From a virus (lineage: Duplodnaviria; Caudoviricetes), in IMG/VR virus record IMGVR_UViG_3300010352_001202: a DNA stretch of 64,000 bases. The stretch is one strand, 5' to 3'. Every line of letters begins with the position of its first letter. Positions within the stretch are counted from its first letter, which is position 1. The notes under the pieces are model-generated. The model was not told the origin of the DNA and made no database searches. It was given only the letters and a program-made list of their open reading frames with translations. A program made the translations under genes and the position numbers. This document shows, piece by piece, positions 3,507-63,400 of the stretch.

Positions 3507-3521
3507 TTAGGAGAAACTACA

Positions 3522-4694
3522 ATGGCAACAAAGCTATTTGAATCAAACTGGGGCGCAACAAAAGAAGCCCTTCTAGAAGGCCTTAAGGGAACCCGTCGTC
3601 AAGCAATGGACGTTGTGTTTGAAAACACTCGTAAATACTTGGCAGAATCGGCTACCGCAGGTGCAACACAAGCTGGTAATATCGCAGTTCTTAACAAGGT
3701 AATGCTACCGTTGATCAGACGTGTCATGCCAACAGTTATTGCGAACGAAATCATGGGCGTACAGCCAATGACAGGTCCAGTTGGCCAAATCCACACTTTG
3801 CGTGTTCGTTACGCAAACACTGCTGCTGGTGTAACAGCAGGTACAGAAGCACTTGGTCCATTCGAAATTGCTAAGGCATATTCGGGTAACGAAGTTGCTG
3901 CCGATCCAGCTGCTGCTTCAACAGCACGTCTTGAAGGCGTACCAGGTAACAAGATGAGCATCCAAATCTTGAAAGAAACCGTCGAAGCTAAGACACGTAA
4001 GTTGTCGGCTCGTTGGACTTTCGAGGCTGCACAAGACGCTAATGCCATTCACGGTATTGATATCGAAGCAGAAATCATGCAAGCTCTTGCACAAGAAATC
4101 ACAGTTGAAATCGACCAAGAAATGTTATTCAAGCTAGGTGCTCTAGTACCTGTTGCTCCAACAACATTCAACCAAGCTGCCGTTTCTGGTACAGCTACAT
4201 ACGTTGGTGATGAAATGGCTGCTCTAGCAGTTATGATCAACCAGCAAGCTAACCTTATTGCTGCACGTACACGTCGTGGTGCTGCTAACTGGGCAGTTGT
4301 TTCGCCAACAGCGTTAACAATTCTTCAGTCTGCTACAACATCTTCGTTCGCACGTACAACAGAAGGTACATTCGAAGCACCTACAAACACAAAGTTTGTC
4401 GGTACATTGAATAGCACAATGCGCGTATATGTTAACCAGTATGCAAGCGATGGCGATCCAATCCTTATCGGTTACAAGGGACCTACAGAAACTGACGCAG
4501 CAGCTTACTACTGCCCATACATTCCATTGATGAGCGTTGGTCCTGTTATGGATCCACAGACATTCGAACCAGTCGTATCGTTCATGACACGTTACGGTTA
4601 CCTAGAATTGACAAATACAGCAAACAGCTTCGGTAACGCCGCAGACTATTTGAGCAAGGTTGGAATTGACAGCAGCACTTTGAAATTTTACTGA
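3522..4694 (+). CDS. gp23: Major capsid protein (T4 gp23-like)
   Basis: Motifs LIRRVMPTVIANEIMGVQPMTGPVGQIHTLR, VEAKTRKLSARWTFEAAQD, YYCPYIPL, FMTRYG. Confidence 0.96.
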   Translation: MATKLFESNWGATKEALLEGLKGTRRQAMDVVFENTRKYLAESATAGATQAGNIAVLNKVMLPLIRRVMPTVIANEIMGVQPMTGPVGQIHTLRVRYANTAAGVTAGTEALGPFEIAKAYSGNEVAADPAAASTARLEGVPGNKMSIQILKETVEAKTRKLSARWTFEAAQDANAIHGIDIEAEIMQALAQEITVEIDQEMLFKLGALVPVAPTTFNQAAVSGTATYVGDEMAALAVMINQQANLIAARTRRGAANWAVVSPTALTILQSATTSSFARTTEGTFEAPTNTKFVGTLNSTMRVYVNQYASDGDPILIGYKGPTETDAAAYYCPYIPLMSVGPVMDPQTFEPVVSFMTRYGYLELTNTANSFGNAADYLSKVGIDSSTLKFY

Positions 4695-35118: not shown

Positions 35119-35438
35119 TTGGCCCCAACAGAGTTGGGAACCAATGTTAGTGGTAGGATAGTGTGAAGATACAGGAAACGAGTTCCTGGGCCTGCACTGT
35201 AAAAAACATGGGTCGAAAGGGCGTGTTCGGGGTATAAAATCCGTGGCGGTAACGCGGAGAGTCAGAACCGGATCGTAAAGTGCATATCCACTTCAGGCGC
35301 TAACTACCGCTGAATGATCTGTTGTGTACTTTACGATAAGCATTGATCTGAGATGGGCTGAAACGCCGCAGACAGTGCTTACAAGAATATATGCATTGTT
35401 GTTACAGTCTGTATAAATATTTACAGAGGACAACAGCA

Positions 35439-35858
35439 ATGATAAAATGTGAAACATGTAGTAATGAAACTTCTAATCAGCGATTCTGTTCTTTGCGTTG
35501 TACTGTTGTATGGAATAATAAACATTCTATGACAGAAGAAACACAACGAAGTAGAGGAAAGAAAAATAGTCAAGGTACAAAAATACCGAACAATCTTTTA
35601 GATATGTCGAGTAGGACAGTTACTAAATTGATTAGAAGAATGAATATAGGTTGTAGTGTATGTGGCTGGAAAGATGCCTTATGTGATATTCATCACATAG
35701 TTCCCAAAAGAAAAGGCGGAACCAACGATAATAGCAACCTAACAATACTTTGCCCAAACCATCATAGACTCATACACGAAGGTGCAGAGTTACCAATAAA
35801 GTCAGTTACTGATCATATTGGAGAGGAATGGAGAAAGCATTACTACGCACATGAATAA
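35439..35858 (+). CDS. HNH endonuclease
   Basis: CSVCGW..DIHHIVPKRKGGTNDNSNLTILCPNHH; GAGGA SD; TATAAATA upstream. Confidence 0.88.
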   Translation: MIKCETCSNETSNQRFCSLRCTVVWNNKHSMTEETQRSRGKKNSQGTKIPNNLLDMSSRTVTKLIRRMNIGCSVCGWKDALCDIHHIVPKRKGGTNDNSNLTILCPNHHRLIHEGAELPIKSVTDHIGEEWRKHYYAHE

Positions 35859-35859
35859 T

Positions 35860-35945
35860 GGGTGTGCCGGGGAGTTGGAGATCCTCACCTGTCTGTAAAA
35901 CAGGCGCCACAGGCTGAATAGGTTCGAATCCTATAACACCCACCA
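35860..35945 (+). tRNA. tRNA-Tyr(GTA)
   Basis: CCTGT-CTGTAAA-ACAGG, long variable arm, GGTTCGAATCC, ACCA. Confidence 0.9.
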
Positions 35946-35952
35946 AGTTTAT

Positions 35953-36040
35953 GGGCTTTTAGGGAAGCGGACAAACTCACCTGCGATGTGAATGCAGGCA
36001 CCTAATGGTTTCGGTAGTTCAAATCTATCAGGGCCCACCA
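35953..36040 (+). tRNA. Atypical tRNA: GTG anticodon on a type II (Tyr-like) body
   Basis: CCTGCG-ATGTGAA-TGCAGG, long variable arm, A73-CCA, no G-1/C73. Confidence 0.6.
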
Positions 36041-36082
36041 AGTTTCGGGATAGACGGAGGGCTAAAAGAGATAAATAAGTGT

Positions 36083-36727
36083 ATGAGCACCTACTATCTC
36101 TATGTAAAAATTCATAATGTCACTGGACTAAGATATCTCGGTCAGACTAAACAAGATCCGCTGAAATATGTAGGATCGGGCATAGATTGGCTAGAACATA
36201 TCAAATGTTATGGATCGGACTTAAAGACAGAAATTATTCTTGAATCTAAATCAAAGAGCGATATTGATAATGCCGGGAGATACTATAGTAACTTCTGGAA
36301 AATTACAACATCTGCAGACGATTTTGGTAATAGAATTTGGGCAAATAGGATAAATGAAACAGGTGGTGGAGGCATTGGTGGTCGGGGAAGATTACCGGGC
36401 TTTTCACATTCCGAAGAAACCAAAGAAAAACTTAGACAAGCAAATAAATCATTTGTAATGTCCGAGGATCGTAGAAGACATTTATCTGAGATCAATACTG
36501 GAAAAACTCATACGGTAGAGACCAAGCAAAAAATTTCTAATGCCAGAAAAGGCAAACCAAGAAGTGCCGAGACTAAAGCAAAAATTTCAGAGTCATTGAA
36601 AAATAGAGTCCCAAGTAGCGCCGCCGCCCCTCAAAAGGCAGGCATTGGTTTTAACGCGAAGTATGGTTTGTTAAAACTCGCCCTTTCGAGACGCAACTAT
36701 CGTACGGTAGTCCTGAATTTAATGTAA
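36083..36727 (+). CDS. GIY-YIG homing endonuclease with NUMOD3 repeats
   Basis: YYLYVKIHNVTGLRYLGQT..YVGSG; HSEETKEKLR, GKTHTVETKQKIS, RSAETKAKIS. Confidence 0.88.
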   Translation: MSTYYLYVKIHNVTGLRYLGQTKQDPLKYVGSGIDWLEHIKCYGSDLKTEIILESKSKSDIDNAGRYYSNFWKITTSADDFGNRIWANRINETGGGGIGGRGRLPGFSHSEETKEKLRQANKSFVMSEDRRRHLSEINTGKTHTVETKQKISNARKGKPRSAETKAKISESLKNRVPSSAAAPQKAGIGFNAKYGLLKLALSRRNYRTVVLNLM

Positions 36728-36783
36728 GTATATGCCCCCGCGGAAGCAGGTGGGCGGAGATGAAAGTTCTCCAATCCTATAAT

Positions 36784-36858
36784 GGGGGCAGCAGAGGGCT
36801 GCGGAGTTGCCTTGCAAGCATCTTGTCTAGAGGGGTTCGATACCCCCGGCCTCCACCA
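36784..36858 (+). tRNA. tRNA-Ala(TGC), reduced D arm
   Basis: Loop CTTGCAA, G3-U70, ACCA. Confidence 0.8.
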
Positions 36859-36864
36859 TTTTCT

Positions 36865-36924
36865 AAAGTGTTCATTCAGCAATCCACAAAAATCAACTTT
36901 TAATTGAAAATAAAACGAACACTG
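36865..36924 (+). ncRNA. CAGCAA module 1 carrying a bare anticodon stem-loop (UUU, Lys-like)
   Basis: AGTGTTC/GAACACT stem, CAGCAA 36877-82, TCAA-CTTTTAA-TTGA. Confidence 0.75.
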
Positions 36925-36934
36925 ATTTATTCAT

Positions 36935-37010
36935 GGCGCAGTAGCATAGCGAATTATGCACCTCCCTGTCTAGGAGGCCGACGAGGGTTTGAGTCCCTTC
37001 TGCGTCGCCA
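36935..37010 (+). tRNA. tRNA-Asp(GTC)
   Basis: CCTCC-CTGTCTA-GGAGG, GCCA end. Confidence 0.85.
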
Positions 37011-37113
37011 GTTATGTGAAGAGTATCGAGCTTACCCTCATAAATACTTTTCACAGTTTAGGTAAGGTATAACGTTGCTTATAACAACTCTACGATACCC
37101 AAACACCTTCTTT

Positions 37114-37170
37114 AAAGAGAACCTACAGCAACTAAAAATTTACTGTAAATGAAACCAAATGTGTTCTCTG
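37114..37170 (+). ncRNA. CAGCAA module 2 carrying a bare anticodon stem-loop (GUA, Tyr-like)
   Basis: AGAGAAC/GTTCTCT stem, CAGCAA 37126-31, TTTA-CTGTAAA-TGAA. Confidence 0.75.
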
Positions 37171-37205
37171 TTTTGAATTTGTAAATATTTGTGTTACAAT
37201 GTGCT

Positions 37206-37619
37206 ATGGCACTCATCAAATGTACTCATTGCGGAAATGATAAAAGAACTTATGGCACAAGTGCTAATTTGTTTTGTTCACGGCAATGCGCTAACGATTT
37301 CCAATATGAACAGCGTGTAGCTGAATGGAAATTATCGGGAGAAAGTACAAGAATTAGCGGCACGCCAGGCTGGTTACGCAGATATTTTTTTGAGAAGCAA
37401 AATGGTAAATGCGCCGGATGTTTGAATGATACCTGGCGAGAACAACCCATAACTCTTGAATTAGAACATAAAGATGGTAACAGTGACCATAATAAGGAAG
37501 AGAATTTAGAACTTCTTTGTCCAAATTGTCACAGTCAGTCATCGACTTATAAAGCAAAGAATAAGGGTAATGGAAGACATTATCGAAGACAGCTTTATAA
37601 GGAAGGTAAAAGTTTTTAG
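37206..37619 (+). CDS. HNH endonuclease
   Basis: CAGC..LELEHKDGNSDHNKEENLELLCPNCHSQ. Confidence 0.88.
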   Translation: MALIKCTHCGNDKRTYGTSANLFCSRQCANDFQYEQRVAEWKLSGESTRISGTPGWLRRYFFEKQNGKCAGCLNDTWREQPITLELEHKDGNSDHNKEENLELLCPNCHSQSSTYKAKNKGNGRHYRRQLYKEGKSF

Positions 37620-37692
37620 CTCTGTTAGTTTAGTGATAGAATGCTGGTTTTGTAGTCCAGATGCGGGAGTTTGATTCTCTCACGGAGCACCA
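37619..37692 (+). tRNA. tRNA-Thr(TGT)
   Basis: Loop TTTGTAG, acceptor GCTCTGT/ACGGAGC, ACCA. Confidence 0.8.
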
Positions 37693-37753
37693 CAAAAAGC
37701 TTGATTGATGTATATAAGATCCTGATTCGACACTACGGATATCAAGCACATTT

Positions 37754-37827
37754 CAGGGTATAATGAAATGGTATCATCCCACCTTTGGAGCGTGGAAGCG
37801 GTAGTTCGATTCTACCTACCCTGACCA
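37754..37827 (+). tRNA. tRNA-Pro(TGG)
   Basis: Loop TTTGGAG, C1-G72, ACCA. Confidence 0.85.
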
Positions 37828-37833
37828 GAATTA

Positions 37834-37907
37834 CAGAGTATAATGAAATGGTATCATCCCACCTTCGGAGCGTGGAAGCCCAAGTTCGATTCTTGGTACT
37901 CTGACCA
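37834..37907 (+). tRNA. tRNA-Pro(CGG), tandem paralog of the preceding gene
   Basis: Loop TTCGGAG; near-identical D and anticodon arms. Confidence 0.85.
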
Positions 37908-38013
37908 ATATAACACATAACAGAAAGCACAATATGGAATTTTTAGCATTCAACTTAATCATGATTATGATAATGTTATCAGCAAGTCTTGCTGAACAAC
38001 TTATCTAAGACAT

Positions 38014-38087
38014 GGCTCTGTAGCTCAATGGTAGAGCACGCGACTGATAATCGCGCGACGAAGGTCCGATTCCTTACGGAGCCACCA
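38014..38087 (+). tRNA. tRNA-Ile(GAT)
   Basis: CGCGA-CTGATAA-TCGCG, ACCA. Confidence 0.9.
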
Positions 38088-38093
38088 TACAAT

Positions 38094-38168
38094 GTCCTGT
38101 TCCACTTCGGGTGAGGTGACCTGCCCTTCAAGCAGAGAAGATGGGTTCGACTCCCATACAGGATGCCA
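38094..38168 (+). tRNA. tRNA-Glu(TTC) with C33
   Basis: CTGC-CCTTCAA-GCAG, GCCA end. Confidence 0.75.
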
Positions 38169-38175
38169 AGTTTAC

Positions 38176-38251
38176 GGGTTTGTAACTCAAATGGCTAGAG
38201 TCCTGCCTCTTAAGCAGCGAGATCCCGGTTCGATGCCGGGCGAACCCACCA
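38176..38251 (+). tRNA. tRNA-Lys(CTT)
   Basis: Loop CTCTTAA, ACCA. Confidence 0.85.
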
Positions 38252-38410
38252 AACAACGGTCCGGACAGAGATCCCTAGGATATATTTCCTCTAGACCACC
38301 ATCAAACCGCTTCCACTTGTTTTCTATTGACATATATAAGCCTAGCGGGCCAATTTTGACCTTTCCACATCACTAAATTATATAAGGATAAAAAAAGGTC
38401 TCTTCAAAAT

Positions 38411-38527
38411 GTCGCTGTAGTGTAAAGGTAGCACAACTAAAAAGGTGATCCTGGCAAGGATACATACAGCAATCTACATTCCATTACAAGGAGTAGGTCC
38501 GGTGTTCGATTCCCGCCGGCGGCACCA
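38411..38527 (+). tRNA. tRNA-Val(TAC)-like gene interrupted between D arm and anticodon arm by a 42-nt CAGCAA module (module 3)
   Basis: Acceptor GTCGCTG/CGGCGGC-ACCA, D arm to 38435, insert 38436-38477, ATTCC-ATTACAA-GGAGT, T loop TTCGATT. Confidence 0.75.
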
Positions 38528-38556
38528 TTGACAAGGTTGAGACTGCATGTAATACT
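38528..38556 (+). promoter_or_regulatory. Possible sigma70 promoter for the vWA gene
   Basis: TTGACA followed 16-17 nt later by TAATACT. Confidence 0.5.
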
Positions 38557-38589
38557 TAGTGCTCAACTTACACACCCTGAAAGGTACAC

Positions 38590-39609
38590 ATGAAGAACTA
38601 CATTGGTATTAGTCGTGACCATAGCGGCTCCATGAGCATGATTGCTAATGCAGCAGCCCGCGATTACAACGACAACATCGCTTCCATTAAGGAAGAAGCC
38701 GGCTCGTTCAACATTGACACTATTGTAAGTGTCATTAAGTGTGGAACTGGTCGCCCTGCGCAAAACCGCTGGGATGTTCAGAATTCGAATGTTACGGCGC
38801 TGAAGCCGCTGACTTCGTACATTGCAGACGGTAACTGCACTCCGCTGTTCGACAGCGTGATGATGCTTATCGACCAAATGGAAAGCGTCCCTGACGCAGC
38901 TGATCCTGAAGTTTCGTTCATGGTTATGGTCGTTACTGACGGCCAGGACAATGCTTCAAACACCAAGGGTCCGCAACTGGCGCAACGCATCAAGTCGCTT
39001 CAGGCAACTGATCGTTGGACTTTCGTCTTCCGTGTTCCGAAGGGCGACAAGGCTCCTCTGGTTCGAATGGGTCTCCCGGCAGGTAACATCCTGGAATGGG
39101 AACAAACCGAACGCGGTGTTCAGCAAGCAACTGTTGCTACCAAGTCGGCTATGCGTGGTTTCTACGCTGCTCGCTCCACTGGTGCAACCAGCACTGACAA
39201 GTTCTACGCCGACATGAGCACTACCACCTTGAATGAAGTGAAGGCCGCCCTGGTTGATATTTCCAAGGAAGTGGATGTGTATGTGGTTGATACGAAGAAC
39301 GACGGTGTCTAAATCAAGGACTTTGTGCTTGCGCAAGGTGTTACCTTTACCAAGGGCTGCGCGTTCTATGAACTGAGCAAGACCGAAACTGTGCAAGAAT
39401 ACAAGCAGATCGCCATCCGTGACAAGATTACGGGCGCTGTCTACAGCGGTTTCGCAGCACGAGATTTGCTTGGTTTGCCGCACTACGGTGAAGTAAAACT
39501 TGCTCCGGGCCAGCACGGTCAGTACAACATCTTCGTCCAGTCGACCTCCATCAACCGCAAGTTGGTGAAGGGCACGAATGTGATGATTTGGACTGCTGTA
39601 ACGGTCTAA
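38590..39609 (+). pseudogene. vWA-domain protein with a single in-frame TAA (39310-39312); pseudogene, sequencing error or readthrough
   Basis: MIDAS motif DHSGSM, TPLFD, VVTDGQDNAS; frame continues past TAA (IKDFVLAQ..AFYELSKTE..) with the same codon style. Confidence 0.7.
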
Positions 39610-39769
39610 GAAACATTAGAGTATGAGATGTATTATAACCATATCCACTACTCTACAGAACATAAGATAGATAACCGGGCCTTGATCATGCAAATCTGTT
39701 GTAAAACAGTAGGTTATCCGTAAGTCGCGGAAGTCAGGACGCCGCGTTATAAATGCGTGGCACGAATAT

Positions 39770-39844
39770 GCGGGTGTGGTGTCAGTGGTAGCATCATAGT
39801 CTTCCAAACTAAAGGTGCGGGTTCGATTCCCGCCATCCGCTCCA
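39770..39844 (+). tRNA. tRNA-Gly(TCC)
   Basis: Loop CTTCCAA, U73-CCA. Confidence 0.9.
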
Positions 39845-39860
39845 AATAGAAAGTATCAAA

Positions 39861-40187
39861 ATGTTTAACTGGTTCAAGTTTAAGCCCAAAGAAGATTGGC
39901 GTCTTGTTAAGACTATTGTCGATGATGTATCTCGCAATAGTGGTAAAGAAAAAGGTAAATTCTATTACCATCTGTTTGAATCTAGTCGTGGAAATAGGCG
40001 CGTAGAGTTTGCTTCTACATTTAGCGATCTGGATAAGGAAGCTTTAGAAAAAGCCGGAAAGCATTTTGACACATATCAAGATATGATTTATCGTTGGGAG
40101 CATGGTCGTGTAGATCCTAACATTCCGCGATATGATCAGATCCCCGAAGAAGAGACAGTAAATGTCCTAAAGGGCAAGATTTCGTAA
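39861..40187 (+). CDS. Hypothetical protein
   Basis: 108-aa ORF between RNA genes. Confidence 0.6.
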   Translation: MFNWFKFKPKEDWRLVKTIVDDVSRNSGKEKGKFYYHLFESSRGNRRVEFASTFSDLDKEALEKAGKHFDTYQDMIYRWEHGRVDPNIPRYDQIPEEETVNVLKGKIS

Positions 40188-40209
40188 TTGTGTGAGGCCT
40201 CACACAAAT

Positions 40210-40297
40210 ATTCGCGTAGTTTAAACGAAAACACCTGCTATTAGGGCATTCAGTTGTTCCAGCAGTAGATATGGGGTTTGGACCCATAGCGACTCTA
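40210..40297 (+). tRNA. Degenerate tRNA-like element with enlarged anticodon arm
   Basis: D-like arm GTTT-AAACG-AAAAC, CTGCT/AGCAG stem closing a 21-nt loop, ATGGG/CCCAT arm, no CCA. Confidence 0.35.
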
Positions 40298-40332
40298 TAA
40301 TCGAAGATCGCTTATTAAATGACAACGATAGA

Positions 40333-40551
40333 GTGACATTTAAGATGCATGATCCTCATAGTAACACTGTTAGAAGATCTTATAATTCAGATAACATAGA
40401 TTTAATTGCGTTATATATTCCCGAACTAAAAGAAATAGCTTTAATTCCTATAGACAAGTTTACCACAAATGATGCGGTTGTTAGAGTTAAGGAATTAGTA
40501 GTAAAAAGAAAAAATGCAGCAATATTGTTTTCGGACTTTATTGTATGGTAA
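40333..40551 (+). pseudogene. C-terminal fragment of a PD-(D/E)XK homing-type endonuclease
   Basis: RRSYNSDNIDLIALYIPELKEIALIP resembles the C half of this family; N half absent. Confidence 0.5.
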
Positions 40552-40556
40552 GTTAT

Positions 40557-40631
40557 GCCCGGTTAGCTCAATGATAGAGCAATTGCTTGATAGGCGATAG
40601 GTTGTAGGTTTGACTCCTACACTGGGTACCA
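40557..40631 (+). tRNA. tRNA-Ile(GAT), second copy
   Basis: ATTGC-TTGATAG-GCGAT, ACCA. Confidence 0.8.
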
Positions 40632-40637
40632 AACAAT

Positions 40638-40709
40638 AGTGTATCTCCGTGCGGACTTCAATCCTTGTTGCGGAACGAAGACTAGGTTAGAAACCTATAT
40701 ACACTGCCA
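40638..40709 (+). ncRNA. D-armless tRNA-like RNA with GGA-CTTCAA-TCC hairpin
   Basis: AGTGTAT/ATACACT acceptor + GCCA, TAGG-TTAGAAA-CCTA T-like arm. Confidence 0.5.
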
Positions 40710-40715
40710 GAGTAT

Positions 40716-40781
40716 TGATGTATCCAGTGGCTGTAGGCTTCGACTAGGAGCATAGACTAGGTTCGATTCCTATATACATCA
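40716..40781 (+). ncRNA. tRNA-like RNA (acceptor + T arm), paralog of the preceding element
   Basis: TGATGTAT/ATACATCA helix, AGACTAGGTTCGATTCCTAT. Confidence 0.5.
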
Positions 40782-40792
40782 GACAAAACAAT

Positions 40793-40871
40793 TCCGCAGA
40801 AACCGAGCAAGGTGCATGGTCTTGACTGTTAATCAATGGTTAGAGTGGTTCGATTCCACTGTGCGGAGCCA
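40793..40871 (+). tRNA. tRNA-Asn(GTT)
   Basis: TTGA-CTGTTAA-TCAA, GCCA end. Confidence 0.88.
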
Positions 40872-40880
40872 GATTTTTAT

Positions 40881-40953
40881 ATGTTTATGGTGCAGTGGCA
40901 GCACTCCCTCCTTCCCAGAGGGCGACCGGGGTTCGAATCCCTGTAAACTTCTA
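40881..40953 (+). tRNA. Degenerate tRNA-Gly(TCC)-like gene without CCA
   Basis: CCCTC-CTTCCCA-GAGGG and GGTTCGAATCC; weak acceptor stem. Confidence 0.5.
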
Positions 40954-41052
40954 TAAAACAAATGTAGAGTATTGTGTGGCCACACAATACCTAAGCAGGA
41001 GTATAGCAAGTTCCAAGGGGGAATCGTTTGCATCCTACTCCGAATCTATTAT

Positions 41053-41126
41053 GAGTCATAAGTGTTACGGTAGCACATCAGTCTCCAAAACTGAGGGCCG
41101 GGGTTCGACTCCCTGACGACTCGCCA
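41053..41126 (+). tRNA. tRNA-Trp(CCA)
   Basis: TCAGT-CTCCAAA-ACTGA, G73-CCA; U11-A24. Confidence 0.9.
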
Positions 41127-41176
41127 ACAATCCGACTTTAGCTGATGTGGTCATAGCGCCTGTCATAAATATAATT

Positions 41177-41833
41177 ATGAACTATCGGCAATTTAGTAAT
41201 AAATGGATATGTAATCTTTGTGAGCGATCGTTCTCTAGCAGACAGGCCACTACATCTCATATCTACAGGGCACATACCGAGCCCGGCGTCTCGCTTGGCG
41301 GCCATAAAAAAGGCAAACCCGCATGGAACAAAGGGCTTTCTAAGGAAACAGATGCAAGGGTGGCCGAAAATGCTATTGCGGTTTCCTTAGCAACTAAGGG
41401 TCGTCCGGGACATCCGCAAACAGAGGAATCCAAAAGAAAGATAAGTCTATCTAAGTCTATCAATAATAAGGGCGGCAGATGTAAATGGTTTGAGATTGCC
41501 GGCCAGAAAGTTCAGGGGACTTGGGAACGAGATATTACACTAAAGTTTGAAGAACTTAATATCAAATGGCAGAAGCTAAAAACAAATCAACATACATTTG
41601 ATTATGTAATGGATTCTAAAACAAGATGTTATACACCGGATTTTTATCTTCCGCAATACGGCATATACCTAGAAATAAAAGGTCGCTGGTGGGGTAGAGA
41701 TAGAGAAAAAATGGATATTGTTATGAAAACATATCCTGATAAAAAGATTGTTATTATAGAAAAACAAGATTATGAAAAGATTTTGCGAGGTGAGCTAGTG
41801 TGGTCATTCCAGCGGCTGCCTGAAGAGCAGTAG
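41177..41833 (+). CDS. PD-(D/E)XK homing endonuclease with C2H2 finger and NUMOD3-like motif
   Basis: CNLC..H..AH; AWNKGLSK; YTPDFYLP..YLEIKG. Confidence 0.82.
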   Translation: MNYRQFSNKWICNLCERSFSSRQATTSHIYRAHTEPGVSLGGHKKGKPAWNKGLSKETDARVAENAIAVSLATKGRPGHPQTEESKRKISLSKSINNKGGRCKWFEIAGQKVQGTWERDITLKFEELNIKWQKLKTNQHTFDYVMDSKTRCYTPDFYLPQYGIYLEIKGRWWGRDREKMDIVMKTYPDKKIVIIEKQDYEKILRGELVWSFQRLPEEQ

Positions 41834-42864: not shown

Positions 42865-42916
42865 GTTGGTTTAGTATTTTCACATAGTAGGTGCTCTTGC
42901 ACCTACTTTCATTTAT

Positions 42917-42993
42917 GCCCCCGTACGCTAATTGGTAGTGCGGATTGATTTAGAATCAGTTGGTTGGGAGTTCGAATCTGCCCGGGGGTACCA
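42917..42993 (+). tRNA. tRNA-Leu(TAG), short variable loop
   Basis: ATTGA-TTTAGAA-TCAGT, ACCA. Confidence 0.82.
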
Positions 42994-42997
42994 AGTT

Positions 42998-43102
42998 TAA
43001 GGGATGGTTGCAGCAAACAAAAATTACTCTTACCATAATCAAGAGGCCGGCCCGCTGGGGGTGTGTCGTGGGTTCGAGTCCCGGCTTAGACACCTCATCC
43101 CG
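42998..43102 (+). ncRNA. CAGCAA module 4 carrying a CAU-loop hairpin and a T-arm-like hairpin
   Basis: GGGATG/CATCCC stem, CAGCAA 43011-16, CTCTT-ACCATAATC-AAGAG, GGG-TTCGAGT-CCC. Confidence 0.65.
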
Positions 43103-43116
43103 ATTTTATTTGACCG

Positions 43117-43235
43117 TTAGGTTCGTTTCAGCAAACAATATAATTCATCTTCAAAATGAAAGATCTGGGTTCGAATCCCAGCAGTAGGGTTGGTCACTAC
43201 TGTCGTCTAATGGATAGGATATAAATACGAACCTG
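43117..43235 (+). tRNA. CAGCAA module 5 enclosing a circularly permuted tRNA with UCA anticodon
   Basis: AGGTTCG/CGAACCT stem; 3' half 43144-89 (TTCAT-CTTCAAA-ATGAA, CTGGG-TTCGAAT-CCCAG, CAGTAGG-G) precedes 5' half 43196-221 (ACTACTG-TC-GTCT-AATGGATA-GGAT-A). Confidence 0.8.
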
Positions 43236-43248
43236 TTTTTAATTCAAT

Positions 43249-43322
43249 GGTGTTAGTAGTGTAGTGGTAGCAAGCTTGTCTGTGAAACAAGAAGCGAGGG
43301 TTCGATTCCCCCTTTCACCCCA
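43249..43322 (+). tRNA. tRNA-His(GTG)
   Basis: CTTGT-CTGTGAA-ACAAG, G-1/C73, CCA. Confidence 0.88.
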
Positions 43323-43329
43323 ATAGTTT

Positions 43330-43419
43330 GGTTGTTTAGCTCAGACGAGAGCACGGAAGAAACCTCTTAACAATGTTGGTCTCCGGGGTCGCAGAAGTAA
43401 TGCCCTGCAACAGCCACCA
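43330..43419 (+). tRNA. Atypical tRNA-like RNA with extended anticodon arm and abnormal T loop
   Basis: GGTTGTT/AACAGCC-ACCA acceptor, TAGCTCAGACGAGAGC D arm. Confidence 0.5.
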
Positions 43420-43426
43420 AATCGAT

Positions 43427-43526
43427 ACCGTCGTCATTATCCGGAGCAAATCCTTCCGGGTTCTAAATGAACAAGGCGCCTAGATGCTGGCGTATATTAC
43501 AGGTTAGATTCCTGTCGGCGATGCCA
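43427..43526 (+). tRNA. Atypical tRNA-like RNA with enlarged D region
   Basis: Acceptor ACCGTCG/CGGCGAT-GCCA, ACAGG-TTAGATT-CCTGT T arm, GCGCC/GGCGT arm. Confidence 0.45.
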
Positions 43527-43666
43527 GTTGCTTTCCTGTAGTGGCTGTCTTATAATAAATACAGATATATAACTATGCGAGCGTCCTTCCGCTTATCTAC
43601 AATGCTCTAAGGTGCCGCAGCGGAAATGCGGTGAAAATTTGTCGTTATTTCTATCTAAAGAACAAT

Positions 43667-43743
43667 GTGCGTGTGACCCGAATTGGCGAGGGAACAGATT
43701 GCAACCCTGTTATATGTAGGTTCAAGTCCTATCACGCACTCCA
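43667..43743 (+). tRNA. tRNA-Cys(GCA)
   Basis: Loop TTGCAAC, U73-CCA. Confidence 0.88.
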
Positions 43744-43931: not shown

Positions 43932-44008
43932 GCCCCCGTACGCTAATTGGTAGTGCGGTCTGATTCAAAATCATATGGTTGTAGGTTCGAATCCAACCGG
44001 GGGTACCA
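43932..44008 (+). tRNA. tRNA-Leu(CAA), short variable loop
   Basis: Loop TTCAAAA; body nearly identical to the 42917 gene. Confidence 0.8.
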
Positions 44009-44030
44009 AAAATATTACGATAAATATAGG

Positions 44031-44723
44031 ATGATCCTAAATTTAGCAAACGGTAATCTAAGCACGGTATTAGACTTTTCTATACCTACCACACTTCCCG
44101 AAGTAGGAAGTATTAACAACATATCTGTATTTTCGTCCGGCGGACTTGATTCGGGTGCATTGTTATGTTTGATAATGTCGGAACTTAAGGCAACAGGTCA
44201 GCTCGACACATTACCGGTAACCTGCTACACAGGTATAAAATACGACGGTGCAACATATTATGCATCGCGTCTGGTATCAAAGATAGCAGAACATTTTTCG
44301 TGTAACATTATTCATAACAACAATGTCGAAAACGATGTTGTAGAGACAGGCCGATTCAGATTTATTGCATCAACTGAACCCAATACCGTTGTGTATGCAG
44401 GTATCAGTCGAATGGTGCCAGAATCGGTAAAAGAATTTAAGAATAAGCTAAAGGTAAAGTATCCAAACGAATTTGGAAAATACAAGTTTCCTTTTTTGAA
44501 TATGGCAAAGCCACAGATACTAGATATCTATTATAAGCTTGGTTGTGAAGACATTATACAATACACGCATTCGTGTGTAAATTTAGCTGTAAGTAAATGC
44601 AATAATTGCTATTCATGCGAAGAGCGAGCCTGGGCATTTACAGAGTTAATGAAATCTGATACAGGGACTGTGCCACCGGATGTAGTAGACATATCCTACA
44701 ACGGCACTTGGCAAGTTTCGTAA
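44031..44723 (+). CDS. QueC-like N-type ATP pyrophosphatase
   Basis: PP-loop SGGLDS; PFLNMAK.QI; THSC..CNNCYSCEER zinc site. Confidence 0.75.
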   Translation: MILNLANGNLSTVLDFSIPTTLPEVGSINNISVFSSGGLDSGALLCLIMSELKATGQLDTLPVTCYTGIKYDGATYYASRLVSKIAEHFSCNIIHNNNVENDVVETGRFRFIASTEPNTVVYAGISRMVPESVKEFKNKLKVKYPNEFGKYKFPFLNMAKPQILDIYYKLGCEDIIQYTHSCVNLAVSKCNNCYSCEERAWAFTELMKSDTGTVPPDVVDISYNGTWQVS

Positions 44724-45774: not shown

Positions 45775-45832
45775 AAAGGTTACATTCAGCAAACAAAACT
45801 AACTTTCAATTGGTGAAAAAAACTGTAACCTG
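45775..45832 (+). ncRNA. CAGCAA module 6 carrying a bare anticodon stem-loop (UUC, Glu-like)
   Basis: AGGTTAC/GTAACCT stem, CAGCAA 45787-92, ACTAA-CTTTCAA-TTGGT. Confidence 0.75.
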
Positions 45833-48036: not shown

Positions 48037-48101
48037 AAAGAGTGCTTCCAGCAAACACAAAAATTTCAAAACCATTATCTTTGAAAAGAAAAAGCATTCT
48101 G
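48037..48101 (+). ncRNA. CAGCAA module 7 carrying a CAU-loop hairpin
   Basis: AGAGTGC/GCATTCT stem, CAGCAA 48049-54, TTTCAAA-ACCATTATC-TTTGAAA. Confidence 0.7.
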
Positions 48102-49237: not shown

Positions 49238-49323
49238 AAAGAATTCTTCCAGCAACATCCTATGGATAAAATTGGTTCAACTCCAATACGCGCCTGTAAC
49301 AGGGCGGGTTTAAAAGAATTCTG
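49238..49323 (+). ncRNA. CAGCAA module 8 carrying a T-arm-like and a CTGTAAC-containing hairpin
   Basis: AGAATTC/GAATTCT stem, CAGCAA 49250-55, ATTGG-TTCAACT-CCAAT. Confidence 0.7.
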
Positions 49324-61288: not shown

Positions 61289-61897
61289 ATGTTCAAACCC
61301 ACATACCTATACATAAAAACTCATAATGTTACCGGATTGAAATATTTTGGTAAAACTGTAGGTGATCCCTTTAGATATAAAGGATCGGGTGTAAGATGGC
61401 TGAATCATCTATCTGTACACGGCAATAAGGTGACCACTGAAATAATCGGGCATTATGAAGTATTAGAAGAATGTAATAAGGCAGCATTAGAGTTTAGTGA
61501 AAAATACAATATAGTAAAGAGTGACGAATGGGCCAACCTTATTGTCGAAGACGGTCTGATGGGAGGATTCACTGAAGATCACGGTAAGAAGATAAAAGAA
61601 ATATGGAAAAATCTTACCGAAGAAGAAAAAGACATAAGAAGGCAAAAAGCCAACCCCTGGAATAATAAAACAGAAGAAGAGATAAGTCGATATAAAAAGA
61701 ATCTTCAAGATTCTATGATTGATATGTATCAATCGATTGCCGGTAAAGAATTATTAGAACATAAGAAAAAAGTAGGAAAATCTTTATTAAAGAATGGAAA
61801 AAGAATGCTATCCGATGAAGCACGACAAAGAATGAAAGAATCGGCGTATAGGACAAACGAATTAAGACGAATAAAGAAGGAGAAAGATAATGCGTAG
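61289..61897 (+). CDS. GIY-YIG homing endonuclease
   Basis: YLYIKTHNVTGLKYFGKT..YKGSGVRW..WANLIVEDG. Confidence 0.88.
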   Translation: MFKPTYLYIKTHNVTGLKYFGKTVGDPFRYKGSGVRWLNHLSVHGNKVTTEIIGHYEVLEECNKAALEFSEKYNIVKSDEWANLIVEDGLMGGFTEDHGKKIKEIWKNLTEEEKDIRRQKANPWNNKTEEEISRYKKNLQDSMIDMYQSIAGKELLEHKKKVGKSLLKNGKRMLSDEARQRMKESAYRTNELRRIKKEKDNA

Positions 61898-62558
61898 AAT
61901 TTTAGAAATCCGCGCAGCAGAAGGCGGAGAAGATAGCAAGCTATTTACGGTAGATCTTGCACAAGCATACCAACGCCATTTTGATCGAGTCGGCTGACTT
62001 AATCGAATAGTAAAGAATGTCCCTGGCGAACTTTATATAGAAGTTGAAGGGCAAAGTTTACACCATCTAGAAAACGAGGCCGGCGGCCATCGCATACAAA
62101 GAGTCCCTCCAACAGAGCGTAAGGGCAGAGTTCATACTAGCACCGTAACGGTTGCAGTCATTGATCCCGAATTACAGGTCAAAGAATACAAAGATTCAGA
62201 CTTTAGGATAGAATGGTATAGTGGTACAGGTGCAGGCGGGCAACACAGAAACAAACATCAAAATTCGTGTCGAATCACTTATACGCCCACAGGCCAAACT
62301 GCTACTGCCCAGTGTCGTTCTCGACAAAATAGCCTAGAACAGGCTAAAGCAGCATTAATAGAACAGTTAAAAAGCGAGGATCACAGACAGAAGAAATTTA
62401 GTCTCGATTCTGAAAGAAAACAGCAAGTTGGTTCTGGAATGCGCGGCGACAAGATTAGGACATATCGTTTTCAAGATGATGTAGTAAAAGATCACCTTAC
62501 AGGAAAAAGTGGTAGCGTAAAGCAGGTTTTACGCGGATACTTTGACTTAATGTGGTAG
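61890..62558 (+). CDS. RF1-type class I peptide chain release factor lacking domain 1, with in-frame TGA at codon 36 (61995-61997)
   Basis: LEIRAAEGGEDS..YQRHFDRVG*LNRI..EAGGHRIQRVPPTERKGRVHTSTVTVAV..GAGGQHRNK..RGDKIRTYRF; missed by the ORF track. Confidence 0.9.
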
Positions 62559-62568
62559 GAGAAAAATA

Positions 62569-62997
62569 TTGCCAAAAAGTAAAGGAATAAGAGAATCATA
62601 TCGATTTGCTCGGGAGGCCGCTCGTATCGCGGGAAATAAATTCTATATCGGTCAAATCTGTAAGAAACATCCGGAATTGTTAGGCCAACGGCAGGTTAAT
62701 AATTGTATCTGTATTGAGTGTAGAAAAGAATATTCAAGACTGCAAAGTACTGGATTTTCGGTAGAATTATTTAATTTGGTATTAAAGCAACAAGAAAATA
62801 GTTGTGCTATATGCAGAGATAAATTTGATAATACTGATGCACACGCAGACCATAATCATGTAACTAAGCAACCACGCGGAATACTGTGCCGAAAATGTAA
62901 TTTAATGATAGGGTTTGCACGAGATAATCCGGAAATTTTACAAAATGCTATAGAATATCTTGCTAAACCAGACCTAATTTTTGGTTGTGATAAATAA
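62569..62997 (+). CDS. Endonuclease VII-like HNH nuclease
   Basis: QENSCAIC..HADHNHVTKQPRGILCRKCNLMIG..DN. Confidence 0.85.
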   Translation: MPKSKGIRESYRFAREAARIAGNKFYIGQICKKHPELLGQRQVNNCICIECRKEYSRLQSTGFSVELFNLVLKQQENSCAICRDKFDNTDAHADHNHVTKQPRGILCRKCNLMIGFARDNPEILQNAIEYLAKPDLIFGCDK

Positions 62998-63029
62998 AAA
63001 TATATATTATAGTTTTAGTTATTGTTGTA

Positions 63030-63350
63030 ATACGGACTGATTCAAAGGATTCAAGACGCGGGTTCGATTCCCGCCGGCTCCACCATTAAGCACATTTGCC
63101 GAATGTTCTTAATAATGGGGCCGACCAGGTTTCGATTGGGTCGCGGAGAGGATGATACGCAACACGCCAGGCGATCGGCGTTAATGAAGCAAAACTCTGT
63201 AAATGCAAACGCAAATACATTCGAGACAGTAGCCCTTGACCTTTCAGCTCTTGCTGACAGCGATATGGCTCTTGCTGCTTAATACCCAGCATACTCCGGG
63301 GCTGGTTAGCCTTGTAACCCAATAACCTTATAGGGACTTCGGTCCCTATA
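63030..63350 (+). ncRNA. ssrA: Two-piece (circularly permuted) tmRNA
   Basis: Acceptor piece ends GACGCGGGTTCGATTCCCGCCGGCTCCACCA (63085); hairpin spacer; coding piece starts GGGGCCGA (63117); tag ANANTFETVALDLSALADSDMALAA* (63205-63282). Confidence 0.92.
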
Positions 63351-63371
63351 ATTATGACTTTTATTTCAAGG

Positions 63372-63400
63372 TTGACATTTCAAGAATAATGTCATATACT
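63372..63400 (+). promoter_or_regulatory. Sigma70-type promoter for the OMP gene
   Basis: TTGACA-17 nt-TATACT. Confidence 0.8.

What the first reader, a model, noticed from the sequence alone, without database searches (positions are those of the whole stretch)
43117..43235. Circularly permuted tRNA gene with a UCA (opal-reading) anticodon
Seen: order is anticodon arm (TTCAT-CTTCAAA-ATGAA), variable loop, perfect T arm, acceptor 3' strand CAGTAGG-G, 6-nt linker, acceptor 5' strand ACTACTG, D arm, all clamped by the CAGCAA module. Joining 43221 to 43144 and opening the linker gives a cloverleaf (1-72 mismatch, no encoded CCA). Known: permuted tRNA genes are described in some algae and an archaeon and mature via a circular intermediate; I know of none in phages. 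Standard tRNA finders would miss it. Inference: a conditionally matured UGA suppressor that could switch on the UGA-interrupted release factor at 61890, or an unprocessed mimic.
Basis: partly seen in the sequence, partly recalled or inferred. Interest (0 to 1): 0.9.

Follow-up and report, generated by a model that had tools for sequence, protein, structure and literature searches.

The report
Phage tRNA-shaped Y-like RNA, not suppressor
A giant phage carries a small RNA gene that holds every part of a tRNA in rotated order, clamped by a conserved "handle"; comparison with related phages suggests it is a tRNA look-alike displayed on a Ro60-like protein, not a working stop-codon-reading tRNA.

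Summary
At 43119-43234 (+) the order is closing stem, CAGCAA, anticodon-type arm (loop CUUCAAA), 4-nt variable loop, T arm, acceptor 3' strand, 7-nt cap loop, acceptor 5' strand, D arm, closing stem. The rotated sequence is a canonical, tRNA-Glu-like cloverleaf.

The suppressor reading is not supported:
- Nine distinct orthologs keep the scaffold, but the anticodon-type loop varies (UCA, GUA, UGA, CAA, AUU).
- No CCA is encoded, although 26 of 29 canonical tRNAs here encode it.
- Pair 1:72 is unpaired in every ortholog.
- Nucleotide 1 and the cap loop may pair with a leader 5-mer.
- The UGA-interrupted RF1-like gene keeps its UGA in a relative whose ortholog RNA carries GUA.

The closing stem plus CAGCAA is a covarying handle shared by at least 7 other small RNAs in this tRNA array. 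In the closest complete relative, and in two cultured phages, the same handle sits next to a DUF2828 protein. I modelled that protein, and its best structural matches are Ro60.

Best reading: a YrlA-like tRNA mimic from a CAGCAA-handle branch that Rfam's YrlA model does not detect. I found no paper describing that branch. Earlier notes of this scan reported the handle family on other DNA. Expression and protein binding are untested.

The parts
43111..43115 (+). Leader 5-mer TGACC, candidate pseudoknot partner of the last four cap-loop bases plus nucleotide 1 (GGTCA, 43192-43196)
   Evidence: A fully complementary 5-mer lies 6-8 nt upstream of the closing stem in all 8 distinct orthologs examined. 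Two pairs change on both sides (CGACT/GGTCG in L015, TGACT/AGTCA in L021). This is suggestive only. The motif also overlaps a weak -35-like TTGACC.
43119..43126 (+). Closing stem, 5' strand (AGGTTCGT)
   Evidence: Pairs with 43227-43234. The stem covaries across paralogs (6 of 7 pairs change on both sides) and across orthologs.
43127..43143 (+). Handle TT-CAGCAA (43127-43134) and A-rich linker ACAATATAA (43135-43143)
   Evidence: TT+CAGCAA is 97% identical among 9 orthologs, while the linker is only 50% identical. The same motif occurs in 7 other small RNAs of the array.
43144..43160 (+). Anticodon-type stem-loop TTCAT-CUUCAAA-ATGAA (7-nt loop, U33, A37, triplet UCA)
   Evidence: Three of the 5 stem pairs show compensatory changes. 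Five different loops occur among 9 orthologs. This is one of the two least conserved parts (loop 56%, stem 64% identity, against 50% for the 5' linker).
43161..43181 (+). Variable loop AGAT (position 47 absent) and T arm CTGGG-TTCGAAT-CCCAG
   Evidence: The Rfam tRNA model matches locally. A15:U48, G18/G19:U55/C56, T54:A58 and G53:C61 can all form (read from the sequence).
43182..43202 (+). Acceptor-type hairpin: CAGTAGG, cap loop GTTGGTC, ACTACTG (6 bp plus a conserved 1:72 non-pair; no CCA)
   Evidence: Pair 73-85 of the alignment covaries. Pair 1:72 is unpaired in all 9 orthologs. The cap loop is 89% conserved.
43203..43221 (+). U8-C9, D arm GTCT-AATGGATA-GGAT, and A26. This is tRNA-Glu-like (U11-A24, U13.G22 with A46, no position 47).
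   Evidence: The best match among the phage's own tRNAs is tRNA-Glu(ctc), 53 of 72 positions. The strict 5'-half test is passed only here.
43222..43235 (+). Linker TAAAT, closing stem 3' strand ACGAACCT (43227-43234), and the conserved G (43235)

Best explanation
The element is a small non-coding RNA of the Y-RNA kind, not a decoding tRNA.

Proposed working:
- Its 5' and 3' ends pair into an 8-bp stem, followed directly by single-stranded UU-CAGCAA. I call this module the handle. It is shared by a family of small RNAs in phage tRNA arrays and most likely docks a phage Ro60-like ring protein (Pfam DUF2828+DUF7788).
- Flexible A-rich linkers join the handle to the cargo.
- The cargo here is a complete tRNA-Glu-shaped body. 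Its acceptor end is closed by a conserved 7-nt cap, possibly locked to the leader by a 5-bp pseudoknot.
- Its anticodon-type arm is the fast-changing part between related phages.
- The RNP would present a tRNA look-alike to tRNA-binding proteins. I think it most likely titrates or tethers a host tRNA-targeting factor such as an anticodon nuclease, or an RNA repair or modification enzyme.

Shown here: the architecture, the family membership, conservation and covariation, the variable loop, and the Ro60-like fold and adjacency in relatives.

Inferred: expression, protein binding, that the cap stays closed, and the decoy or tether role.
For: Orthologs
- Orthologs occur in at least 8 other phage or metagenome contigs, scoring 115-142 bits with model R2.
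- Handle, acceptor stem, cap and D arm are 85-97% identical. The anticodon-type loop is 56% identical, with five different loops.
- The anticodon-type stem shows compensatory changes in 3 of 5 pairs.

Handle family
- Seven short members gave a closing stem with compensatory changes in 6 of 7 pairs.
- Model R1 then found untrained members at 30-56 bits.
- In the array, members lie on the + strand only.

Permuted tRNA-type cargo elsewhere
- Other members with the same handle carry permuted tRNA bodies with GUA, GUU and other loops.

Link to a Ro60-like protein
- The closest complete relative, G001 (385 kb), has a 469-aa DUF2828+DUF7788 gene. Handle RNAs lie directly upstream of it and an RNA ligase gene lies about 3 kb upstream.
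- My model of that protein (pLDDT 68.6) has Ro60 structures as its 13 best PDB matches, E 1e-9 to 5e-5, over the full length.
- The protein family is present in 711 cultured phage records.
- In Mycobacterium phage Krypton555 and Escherichia phage EC6, CAGCAA-handle RNAs follow the gene directly, including a permuted tRNA-like one.

Literature
- YrlA Y RNAs have the same order: stem, V, T arm, acceptor hairpin, D arm, stem (PMC4201824).
- The Felix-O1-like phage Bas63 protein gp130 is reported as Ro60-like and as countering the Ppl defence. Its authors suggest Y RNAs among the neighbouring tRNA genes (10.1101/2024.10.10.617714).
Against: - No expression, end-mapping or binding data exist.
- The 99 kb held for this phage contains no DUF2828 or TROVE gene. 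The link rests on relatives and on an unchecked first-reader note.
- In G001 the ortholog lies about 40 kb from the Ro60-like gene.
- Three of ten contigs with such RNAs gave no DUF2828 match, two of them 99-100% complete.
- My search patterns fixed the T arm and part of the D arm, so their invariance is partly an effect of how the orthologs were found.
- The pseudoknot rests on two compensatory events.
- Some distant members encode CCA inside the cap loop, and M. smegmatis YrlA is opened by RNase P and receives CCA (PMC4201824). A closed cap is therefore not certain.
Confidence: 0.68

Rival explanations
1. A true circularly permuted tRNA gene. The handle would be removed or tolerated, the cap opened by RNase P and 3' trimming, and CCA added by the host. 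The product would decode UGA and allow synthesis of the RF1-like protein, whose gene has an in-frame UGA.
For: - The cloverleaf is canonical, with all tertiary positions present.
- The UCA loop has U33 and A37.
- The RF1-like gene 61890-62558 has TGA at a conserved Trp position. That TGA is conserved in G001 at 77% protein identity, so it is probably programmed.
- No canonical tRNA(UCA) was found in the 99 kb held.
- An RNA ligase gene lies near the Ro60-like gene in G001.
- M. smegmatis YrlA is cut by RNase P and receives CCA (PMC4201824).
Against: - The loop triplet differs among orthologs: GUA, UGA, CAA and AUU.
- G001 keeps the in-frame TGA but has GUA in its ortholog.
- CCA is absent here, yet encoded in 26 of 29 canonical tRNAs.
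- No CCA-adding enzyme gene was found in G000, G001 or G002.
- Pair 1:72 is never formed.
- TGA ends 31 of 112 long ORFs, so a strong suppressor would be harmful.
- The junction has no bulge-helix-bulge motif, and the same handle carries bare hairpins that cannot be tRNAs.
- The body is Glu-type, while the UGA sits at a Trp position.
Confidence: 0.05
2. A tRNA-like processing signal. The element would serve only as an RNase P or RNase E/Z landmark for cutting the long tRNA-array transcript, with no function as a stable RNA.
For: - It lies inside a dense tRNA array, between tRNA-Leu and tRNA-His.
- The flanks are conserved (TTCTAA-AG...CT-G-ATT).
- It has tRNA-shaped features that RNase P recognises.
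Against: - The covarying closing stem and invariant CAGCAA are not needed for RNase P.
- The same handle occurs next to Ro60-like genes in phages that lack large arrays at that spot (Krypton555).
- The anticodon-type arm is maintained by compensatory change although RNase P ignores it.
Confidence: 0.08
3. The handle is an excisable, intron-like module. A phage endonuclease would cut at the handle and the RNA ligase would join 26 to 27. That would yield a circular or normal tRNA both from permuted copies (this one) and from unpermuted copies (38411-38527).
For: - Two opposite circular permutations of the same design occur in one array. Here the handle is outside. At 38411-38527 a handle hairpin plus CAGCAA is inserted between the D arm and the anticodon arm of a tRNA-Val-like gene with encoded CCA. 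ARAGORN calls that gene tRNA-Val once about 42 nt are deleted.
- An RNA ligase gene neighbours the Ro60-like gene in G001.
Against: - Members carrying only an anticodon-type hairpin would give no useful product.
- No endonuclease candidate was identified.
- The long unstructured linkers differ in length between orthologs, which fits a tether better than a precise splice site.
Confidence: 0.05
4. A decaying remnant of two tandem tRNA-Glu genes that lost their outer halves and has no function.
For: - The order 3' half, short spacer, 5' half is what tandem duplicates give. Tandem tRNA pairs with 6-10 nt spacers exist in this array.
- One pattern hit (L011) was such a tRNA dimer.
Against: - The element is conserved in at least 9 distinct sequences from different samples.
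- Compensatory changes occur in four helices, and the cap loop and handle are conserved.
Confidence: 0.02

Closest known systems
YrlA-type bacterial and phage Y RNAs bound by Ro60/Rsr (Chen et al. 2014, PMC4201824; Rfam RF02553)
   Same: - The 5' and 3' ends pair into a stem next to a short single-stranded protein-binding motif.
- The interior is a tRNA-like domain in permuted order: stem-loop, T arm, capped acceptor hairpin, D arm.
- The same tertiary-pair positions are kept.
- They are found in phages.
   Different: - The motif is CAGCAA, not GNCGAAN0-1G.
- The Rfam YrlA model does not score it (no hit at E<=10; best 14 bits elsewhere in G000 against a 69-bit cut-off).
- The partner is a DUF2828+DUF7788 protein that Pfam TROVE does not detect.
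- Here a 5-bp, 7-nt-loop anticodon-type arm abuts position 26 exactly, so the whole cloverleaf is present and the handle is an extra fifth helix.
- The gene lies in a tRNA array, tens of kb from the protein gene in the closest complete relative.
M. smegmatis YrlA (RNase P cleavage of the acceptor cap and CCA addition, PMC4201824)
   Same: A capped acceptor hairpin that could be opened to give a two-piece, tRNA-ended RNA.
   Different: Here 1:72 is never paired, and the cap may be tied up in a pseudoknot. Cleavage is untested.
Circularly permuted tRNA genes of Cyanidioschyzon merolae, other algae and Thermofilum pendens (my own knowledge; reviews PMC4090602, PMC3400036)
   Same: The 3' half is encoded upstream of the 5' half, and the rotated sequence is a canonical tRNA.
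   Different: - Those use a bulge-helix-bulge junction, a splicing endonuclease and a circular intermediate, and they supply essential isoacceptors.
- Here there is no BHB and no known endonuclease.
- The anticodon varies among orthologs.
- No CCA is encoded in a genome that otherwise encodes it.
Permuted (two-piece) tmRNA
   Same: A tRNA-like domain encoded in permuted order. One is present in this window at 62993-63373.
   Different: tmRNA has a matured, aminoacylated acceptor end and a coding part. Nothing comparable is evident here.
Dictyostelium Class I RNAs (Rfam RF01414)
   Same: Both have a short 5'/3' stem, then (C)UUACAGCAA, an A-rich interior and a CUG tail. The short handle RNAs of this window score 31.6 and 23.7 bits (E 4e-4 and 0.04). 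The target scores 22.4 bits.
   Different: All scores are below the 41.5-bit gathering score. Those are eukaryotic RNAs with no tRNA-like cargo. Any relationship is unknown.
Bas63 gp130, a Ro60-like protein of a Felix-O1-like coliphage that counters the Ppl defence (preprint 10.1101/2024.10.10.617714)
   Same: The gene sits directly upstream of a tRNA array, and the authors suggest that some of the 'tRNAs' are Y RNAs. Felixounavirus homologs are 42% identical to the G001 protein. EC6 has CAGCAA-handle RNAs right after its gene.
   Different: No RNA partner was defined in that work. That gp130 belongs to the same family is inferred from genus and gene position, not checked on the Bas63 record.

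Membership tests
Circularly permuted tRNA gene (algal/archaeal type) | The 3' half lies upstream of the 5' half, and the rotated sequence folds as a canonical cloverleaf | tested here: met
   plus the tertiary positions read.
Circularly permuted tRNA gene (algal/archaeal type) | The precursor ends form a bulge-helix-bulge motif for the splicing endonuclease | tested here: not met
   The junction is an 8-bp stem with 17-nt and 5-nt single-stranded joiners and no BHB.
Circularly permuted tRNA gene (algal/archaeal type) | A circular intermediate and a mature, CCA-ended, aminoacylated tRNA | not testable with these tools
   No RNA data were obtainable.
Opal suppressor tRNA | A UCA triplet in a 7-nt loop with U33 and a purine at 37 | tested here: met
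   Loop CUUCAAA at 43149-43155.
Opal suppressor tRNA | The anticodon is conserved in orthologs | tested here: not met
   There are five loops among 9 orthologs. UCA occurs only in the window and its 92%-identical relative L002, with an ambiguous register in L021.
Opal suppressor tRNA | An acceptor end fit for charging (paired 1:72, CCA) | tested here: not met
   1:72 is unpaired in all orthologs. No CCA is encoded, against 26 of 29 canonical tRNAs. No phage CCA-adding enzyme was found.
Opal suppressor tRNA | The genome shows UGA reassignment | tested here: not met
   TGA ends 31 of 112 long ORFs. The only clear in-frame TGA is in the RF1-like gene.
YrlA Y RNA (RF02553) | A terminal stem enclosing a T arm, capped acceptor hairpin and D arm | tested here: met
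YrlA Y RNA (RF02553) | The GNCGAAN0-1G motif near the 5' end | tested here: not met
   UU-CAGCAA is found instead. The motif definition is from PMC4201824.
YrlA Y RNA (RF02553) | Scores at or above the Rfam gathering score (69 bits) | tested here: not met
   No hit at E<=10 over 42900-43700. The best hit in G000 is 14.2 bits, elsewhere.
YrlA Y RNA (RF02553) | Encoded beside a TROVE-domain Ro60 | tested here: not met
   No TROVE match in G000. Relatives carry a DUF2828 protein with a Ro60-like predicted fold instead.
CAGCAA-handle RNAs that accompany DUF2828 Ro60-like proteins (no publication found) | A covarying 6-9 bp terminal stem with CAGCAA 1-4 nt after its 5' strand, A-rich linkers and a variable cargo | tested here: met
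CAGCAA-handle RNAs that accompany DUF2828 Ro60-like proteins (no publication found) | A DUF2828 gene in the same genome | tested here: inconclusive
   Absent from the 99 kb held, which is 26% of the genome. Present in the three closest relatives G001, G002 and G006. A first-reader note places one beyond the window's end, unchecked.
CAGCAA-handle RNAs that accompany DUF2828 Ro60-like proteins (no publication found) | The protein binds the handle | not testable with these tools
   Needs EMSA, RIP or a structure.

The most novel reading that the evidence does not exclude
The phage Ro60-like particle displays a full tRNA body whose anticodon arm is a swappable, fast-evolving cassette. Sister RNAs display bare anticodon arms of Lys, Tyr, Glu, Val, His and Ile type. 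Together they would form a library of tRNA decoys or baits aimed at host anticodon nucleases or other tRNA-directed defences. The cassette would change as the targets change, and the UCA version would be one such bait (for example a tRNA-Sec or mutated tRNA-Trp look-alike).
Probability: 0.3. Interest if true: 0.8.

Novelty: new variant of a known kind. Interest (0 to 1): 0.6.

Why it matters
What the tRNA-like domain of bacterial Y RNAs is for remains unknown. This branch offers three new leads.

- The handle and the tRNA body are nearly fixed, while the anticodon-type arm is replaced between close relatives and kept folded by compensatory change. That points to the anticodon arm as the specificity element.
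- The same handle carries anything from a bare anticodon hairpin to a whole tRNA, in either circular permutation. It therefore behaves as a modular docking tag.
- The protein family is present in 711 cultured phage records, including Felix-O1-like coliphages and mycobacteriophages. Binding, processing and anti-defence tests can be done in laboratory strains.

There is also a practical lesson for annotation. Rotated tRNA-like genes in phage arrays should not be read as suppressor tRNAs from the loop triplet alone.

Tried and rejected
- blastn of the region against cultured phages found no match.
- An exact 23-mer scan of viral contigs found nothing, because the nearest relative differs in the acceptor strand.
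- Single-sequence folds of the target and of two neighbouring elements (43001 and 38411) had insignificant z-scores, so they were not used as evidence.
- ARAGORN acceptance of the rotated sequence proved lenient (10-11% of controls pass). I replaced it with a strict test.
- Model R1 cannot span the long cargo and matches the target only partly (14.5 bits), so I built a second model, R2.
- MAFFT would not put the leader 5-mer in register. The pseudoknot was therefore counted by script, not with the pair-counting tool.
- Whole-genome recoding of TGA, TAG or TAA is rejected. Opening any one stop lengthens ORFs about equally, and TGA is a common stop.
- Searches of G000 for DUF2828 and TROVE found nothing. 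A search for a CCA-adding enzyme in G000, G001 and G002 also found nothing.
- One pattern hit (L011) was an ordinary tRNA dimer, and another (L014) is the other permutation type. Both were left out of the ortholog set.

Full report
SETTING
The window is part of an IMG/VR virus record (G000, 99 kb, estimated 26% complete, so a phage of roughly 380 kb). Positions 35.8-49.4 kb hold an array of 29 tRNA genes found by ARAGORN, plus a few more found only by Rfam. Homing-endonuclease genes and a QueC-like gene are interspersed among them. A permuted tmRNA lies at 62993-63373. Neither tRNA finder reports anything at 43117-43235.

THE OBSERVATION
Joining 43196-43221 to 43144-43189 gives a 72-nt sequence that ARAGORN draws as a cloverleaf with anticodon UCA. 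The Rfam tRNA model matches the anticodon arm plus T arm locally at 23.9 bits.

ARAGORN is lenient here. About 10% of constructs with a shuffled or random 5' half still pass. I therefore used a strict test of the 5' half: at least 6 of 7 acceptor pairs, U8, a 4-bp D stem, and A14, GG and A21. Only the true site passes among 127,940 positions of the window, against 9 in 1.28 million shuffled positions.

The body is of tRNA-Glu type. Its best match among the phage's own tRNAs is tRNA-Glu(ctc), 53 of 72 positions. It also keeps the U11-A24 pair, the U13.G22 pair with A46, and the missing position 47, which are known identity features of E. coli tRNA-Glu (my own knowledge). U8:A14, A15:U48, G18/G19 with the T loop, T54:A58 and G53:C61 can all form.

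THE CLAMP IS A FAMILY-WIDE HANDLE
A scan for a perfect stem followed by CAGCAA finds eight such units on the + strand of the array and none on the - strand there. They lie at 36867, 37116, 43001, 43119, 45777, 48039 and 49240, plus an inverted arrangement at 38411.

Seven short members from this window and two related contigs align with conserved flanks and an invariant CAGCAA. Six of the 7 closing-stem pairs change on both sides. The members were chosen for pairing, so the covariation is informative but the 100% pairing is not.

A covariance model of these members (R1) then found members it was not trained on, at 30-56 bits. Cargoes range from a bare 5-bp, 7-nt-loop hairpin (loops CUUUUAA, CUGUAAA, CUUUCAA) through a T-loop/D-loop 'elbow' (49240) to the full tRNA body of the target.

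ORTHOLOGS
The two flanking protein genes led to contig L002 (76-77% protein identity). It carries the same element at the same place, about 92% identical.

Pattern scans of viral and metagenome contigs, followed by a second model (R2), gave 13 matches at 115-142 bits, which are nine distinct sequences. Across them, 93% of cells pair. Compensatory changes occur in the closing stem, the acceptor stem and three of the five pairs of the anticodon-type stem. Pair 1:72 is unpaired in all nine.

Mean pairwise identity by part:
- UU-CAGCAA: 97%
- D arm: 95%
- cap loop: 89%
- acceptor and closing stems: 85%
- anticodon-type stem: 64%
- anticodon-type loop: 56%

The T arm and part of the D arm were fixed by my search patterns, so their invariance carries little weight.

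The loops are CUUCAAA (window, L002), CUGUAAA (three contigs), UUUGAAC (one lineage), UUCAACA and UUAUUCA. U33 is kept throughout. The hairpin is therefore maintained as an anticodon-type arm, but its triplet is not conserved.

More distant members with the same handle carry other permuted tRNA bodies with GUA, GUU and other loops, several per genome. Orthologous bare-hairpin members also swap loops, for example CUUUUAA here against CUUGUAA in G001 under the same closing stem.

A POSSIBLE PSEUDOKNOT
In all eight distinct orthologs examined, a 5-mer lying 6-8 nt upstream of the closing stem (TGACC here, 43111-43115) is fully complementary to the last four cap-loop bases plus nucleotide 1 (GGTCA). 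L015 has CGACU with GGUCG, and L021 has UGACU with AGUCA, so two pairs change on both sides.

This would explain why 1:72 never pairs and why the cap is conserved. It would also lay the closing stem alongside the acceptor stem. The sample is small, and TTGACC is also a weak -35-like hexamer, so I rate this as suggestive.

THE PROTEIN PARTNER
Notes from earlier stages of this scan pointed to a DUF2828 protein. I treated them as leads.

- G000 has no DUF2828 or TROVE match.
- The three closest relatives (G001, G002, G006) each encode a DUF2828 protein of about 470 aa. Among ten contigs with such RNAs, four matched above Pfam's cut-off, one more did so only when adjacent hits were summed, two gave weak sub-threshold hits and three had none.
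- In G001 (385 kb, complete) the 469-aa gene (DUF2828+DUF7788) has handle RNAs directly upstream: R1 hits at L037:3607-3719 and 2318-2362, and an R2 hit at 3428-3548. An RNA ligase gene lies about 3 kb upstream.
- An AlphaFold model built from five homologs (pLDDT 68.6, pTM 0.60) has Ro60 structures as its 13 best PDB matches. These are Thermus phage phiLo, Xenopus, Deinococcus and human Ro60, with E 1e-9 to 5e-5 and TM about 0.5 over the full length.
- The family is present in 711 cultured phage records.
- In Mycobacterium phage Krypton555 the gene annotated 'Ro-like RNA binding protein' is followed at once by three CAGCAA-handle RNAs. One has a permuted tRNA-like cargo (R2 45.9 bits), and one carries a bare hairpin.
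- In Escherichia phage EC6 the gene is followed by handle RNAs at the head of its tRNA array.

COMPARISON WITH WHAT IS KNOWN
YrlA Y RNAs have the same plan: a terminal stem with a short motif, then a stem-loop, T arm, capped acceptor hairpin and D arm. They were reported in 254 bacteria and 22 phages, and M. smegmatis YrlA is cut by RNase P and receives CCA (PMC4201824).

The present RNA differs in four ways:
- The motif is CAGCAA, not GNCGAA.
- It is invisible to Rfam's YrlA model.
- The partner is not detected by Pfam TROVE.
- The extra hairpin abuts position 26 exactly, so a whole cloverleaf is present.

A preprint on Bas63 calls its gp130 Ro60-like, shows that it counters the Ppl defence, and guesses that some neighbouring 'tRNAs' are Y RNAs (10.1101/2024.10.10.617714). 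A review of jumbo phages mentions TROVE proteins with a tRNA-like partner (PMC7824862). I found no paper that describes the CAGCAA handle, or a permuted tRNA in a phage.

The short members also resemble Dictyostelium Class I RNAs in Rfam, at 31.6 bits and E 4e-4, below the gathering score.

THE SUPPRESSOR IDEA
The RF1-like gene (PPT and GGQ motifs) does have an in-frame TGA where RF1 has a conserved Trp (the alignment with E. coli RF1 is from memory). The TGA is kept in the G001 ortholog at 77% protein identity, so it looks programmed.

Several results count against the target being its decoder:
- G001's copy of the target carries GUA, and the 60 kb of G001 that I scanned holds no tRNA(UCA). 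It does hold a tRNA(CUA).
- TGA ends 31 of 112 long ORFs in G000.
- The target lacks the CCA that 26 of 29 canonical tRNAs here encode.
- No CCA-adding enzyme gene is present in G000, G001 or G002.

A simpler candidate decoder is the phage's own tRNA-Trp(CCA) at 41053-41126. It has a U11-A24 pair, the pair created by the classic Hirsh UGA-suppressor mutation of E. coli tRNA-Trp (my own knowledge, untested here). I put the suppressor reading at about 5%.

VERDICT
The structure is real, conserved and unusual. It is best read as a tRNA mimic on a Y-RNA-like handle for a phage Ro60-like protein. That makes it a new variant of the YrlA kind, in a branch that this scan has met before on other DNA but that I could not find in the literature.

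Shown: the architecture, the family, the covariation, the variable loop, and the Ro60-like fold and adjacency in relatives. Not shown: expression, processing, binding and function.

Noticed in passing
window 38411-38527 (+): This is a tRNA-Val(UAC)-like gene with encoded CCA. It carries an insert of about 42 nt (hairpin ATCCT-GGCA-AGGAT, then CAGCAA) exactly between the D arm and the anticodon arm, which is the opposite circular permutation of the target's design. ARAGORN misses it as it stands but calls tRNA-Val once 38436-38477 is deleted. L014 holds a similar case with a GUC loop.
   Followed up: partly
window 43001-43101 (+), directly upstream of the target: This is another handle RNA (GGGATGG ... 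TCATCCC, CAGCAA). Its cargo holds a T-arm-like hairpin enclosed by a 5-bp stem. The L002 ortholog keeps that stem by a compensatory change (GTGTC/GACAC against GTGAC/GTCAC) but has a quite different first hairpin.
   Followed up: partly
window 36867-36923, 37116-37169, 45777-45831, 48039-48100, 49240-49322 (+): These are short handle RNAs. Their only cargo is an anticodon-type hairpin (CUUUUAA, CUGUAAA, CUUUCAA) or a D-loop/T-loop 'elbow'. Orthologs in other phages keep the closing stem but change the loop triplet, for example UUU to UGU and GUA to GUG.
   Followed up: partly
window 61890-62558 (+); L035:1495-2169 (-): This is a domain-1-less RF1-type release factor gene (PPT, GGQ) with an in-frame TGA at a conserved Trp position. 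The TGA is conserved in phage G001 at 77% protein identity, although the base after it differs (C here, A there).
   Followed up: partly
window 41053-41126 (+): The phage tRNA-Trp(CCA) has a U11-A24 pair and G73. U11-A24 is the pair created by the Hirsh UGA-suppressor mutation of E. coli tRNA-Trp, so this tRNA is a candidate reader of the release-factor UGA (sequence; the link is from my own knowledge).
   Followed up: no
window 43322-43660 (+); L002:5833-6180: A non-coding stretch of about 330 nt lies between tRNA-His and tRNA-Cys and is conserved in L002. It starts like a tRNA 5' half (GGTTGTT-TA-GCTC...) and ends with a T-arm-like hairpin followed by GCCA. It has no Rfam match and its nature is unknown.
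   Followed up: no
window 36868-36924 and 37117-37170 (+): The short handle RNAs match Rfam's Dictyostelium Class I RNA model over its full length (31.6 and 23.7 bits, E 4e-4 and 0.04, below the 41.5-bit cut-off). The plan is the same: stem, UU(A)CAGCAA, A-rich interior, CUG.
   Followed up: partly
L037:19388-19464 (-) in G001: The closest complete relative carries a well-scoring tRNA with anticodon CUA, which is amber-reading (Rfam 65 bits). None is seen in the 99 kb held for this phage.
   Followed up: no
window 35391-41833 (+): The tRNA array is interrupted by HNH, NUMOD3 and endonuclease-I-type genes. A QueC-like gene (43947-44723) and radical-SAM genes follow it.
   Followed up: no
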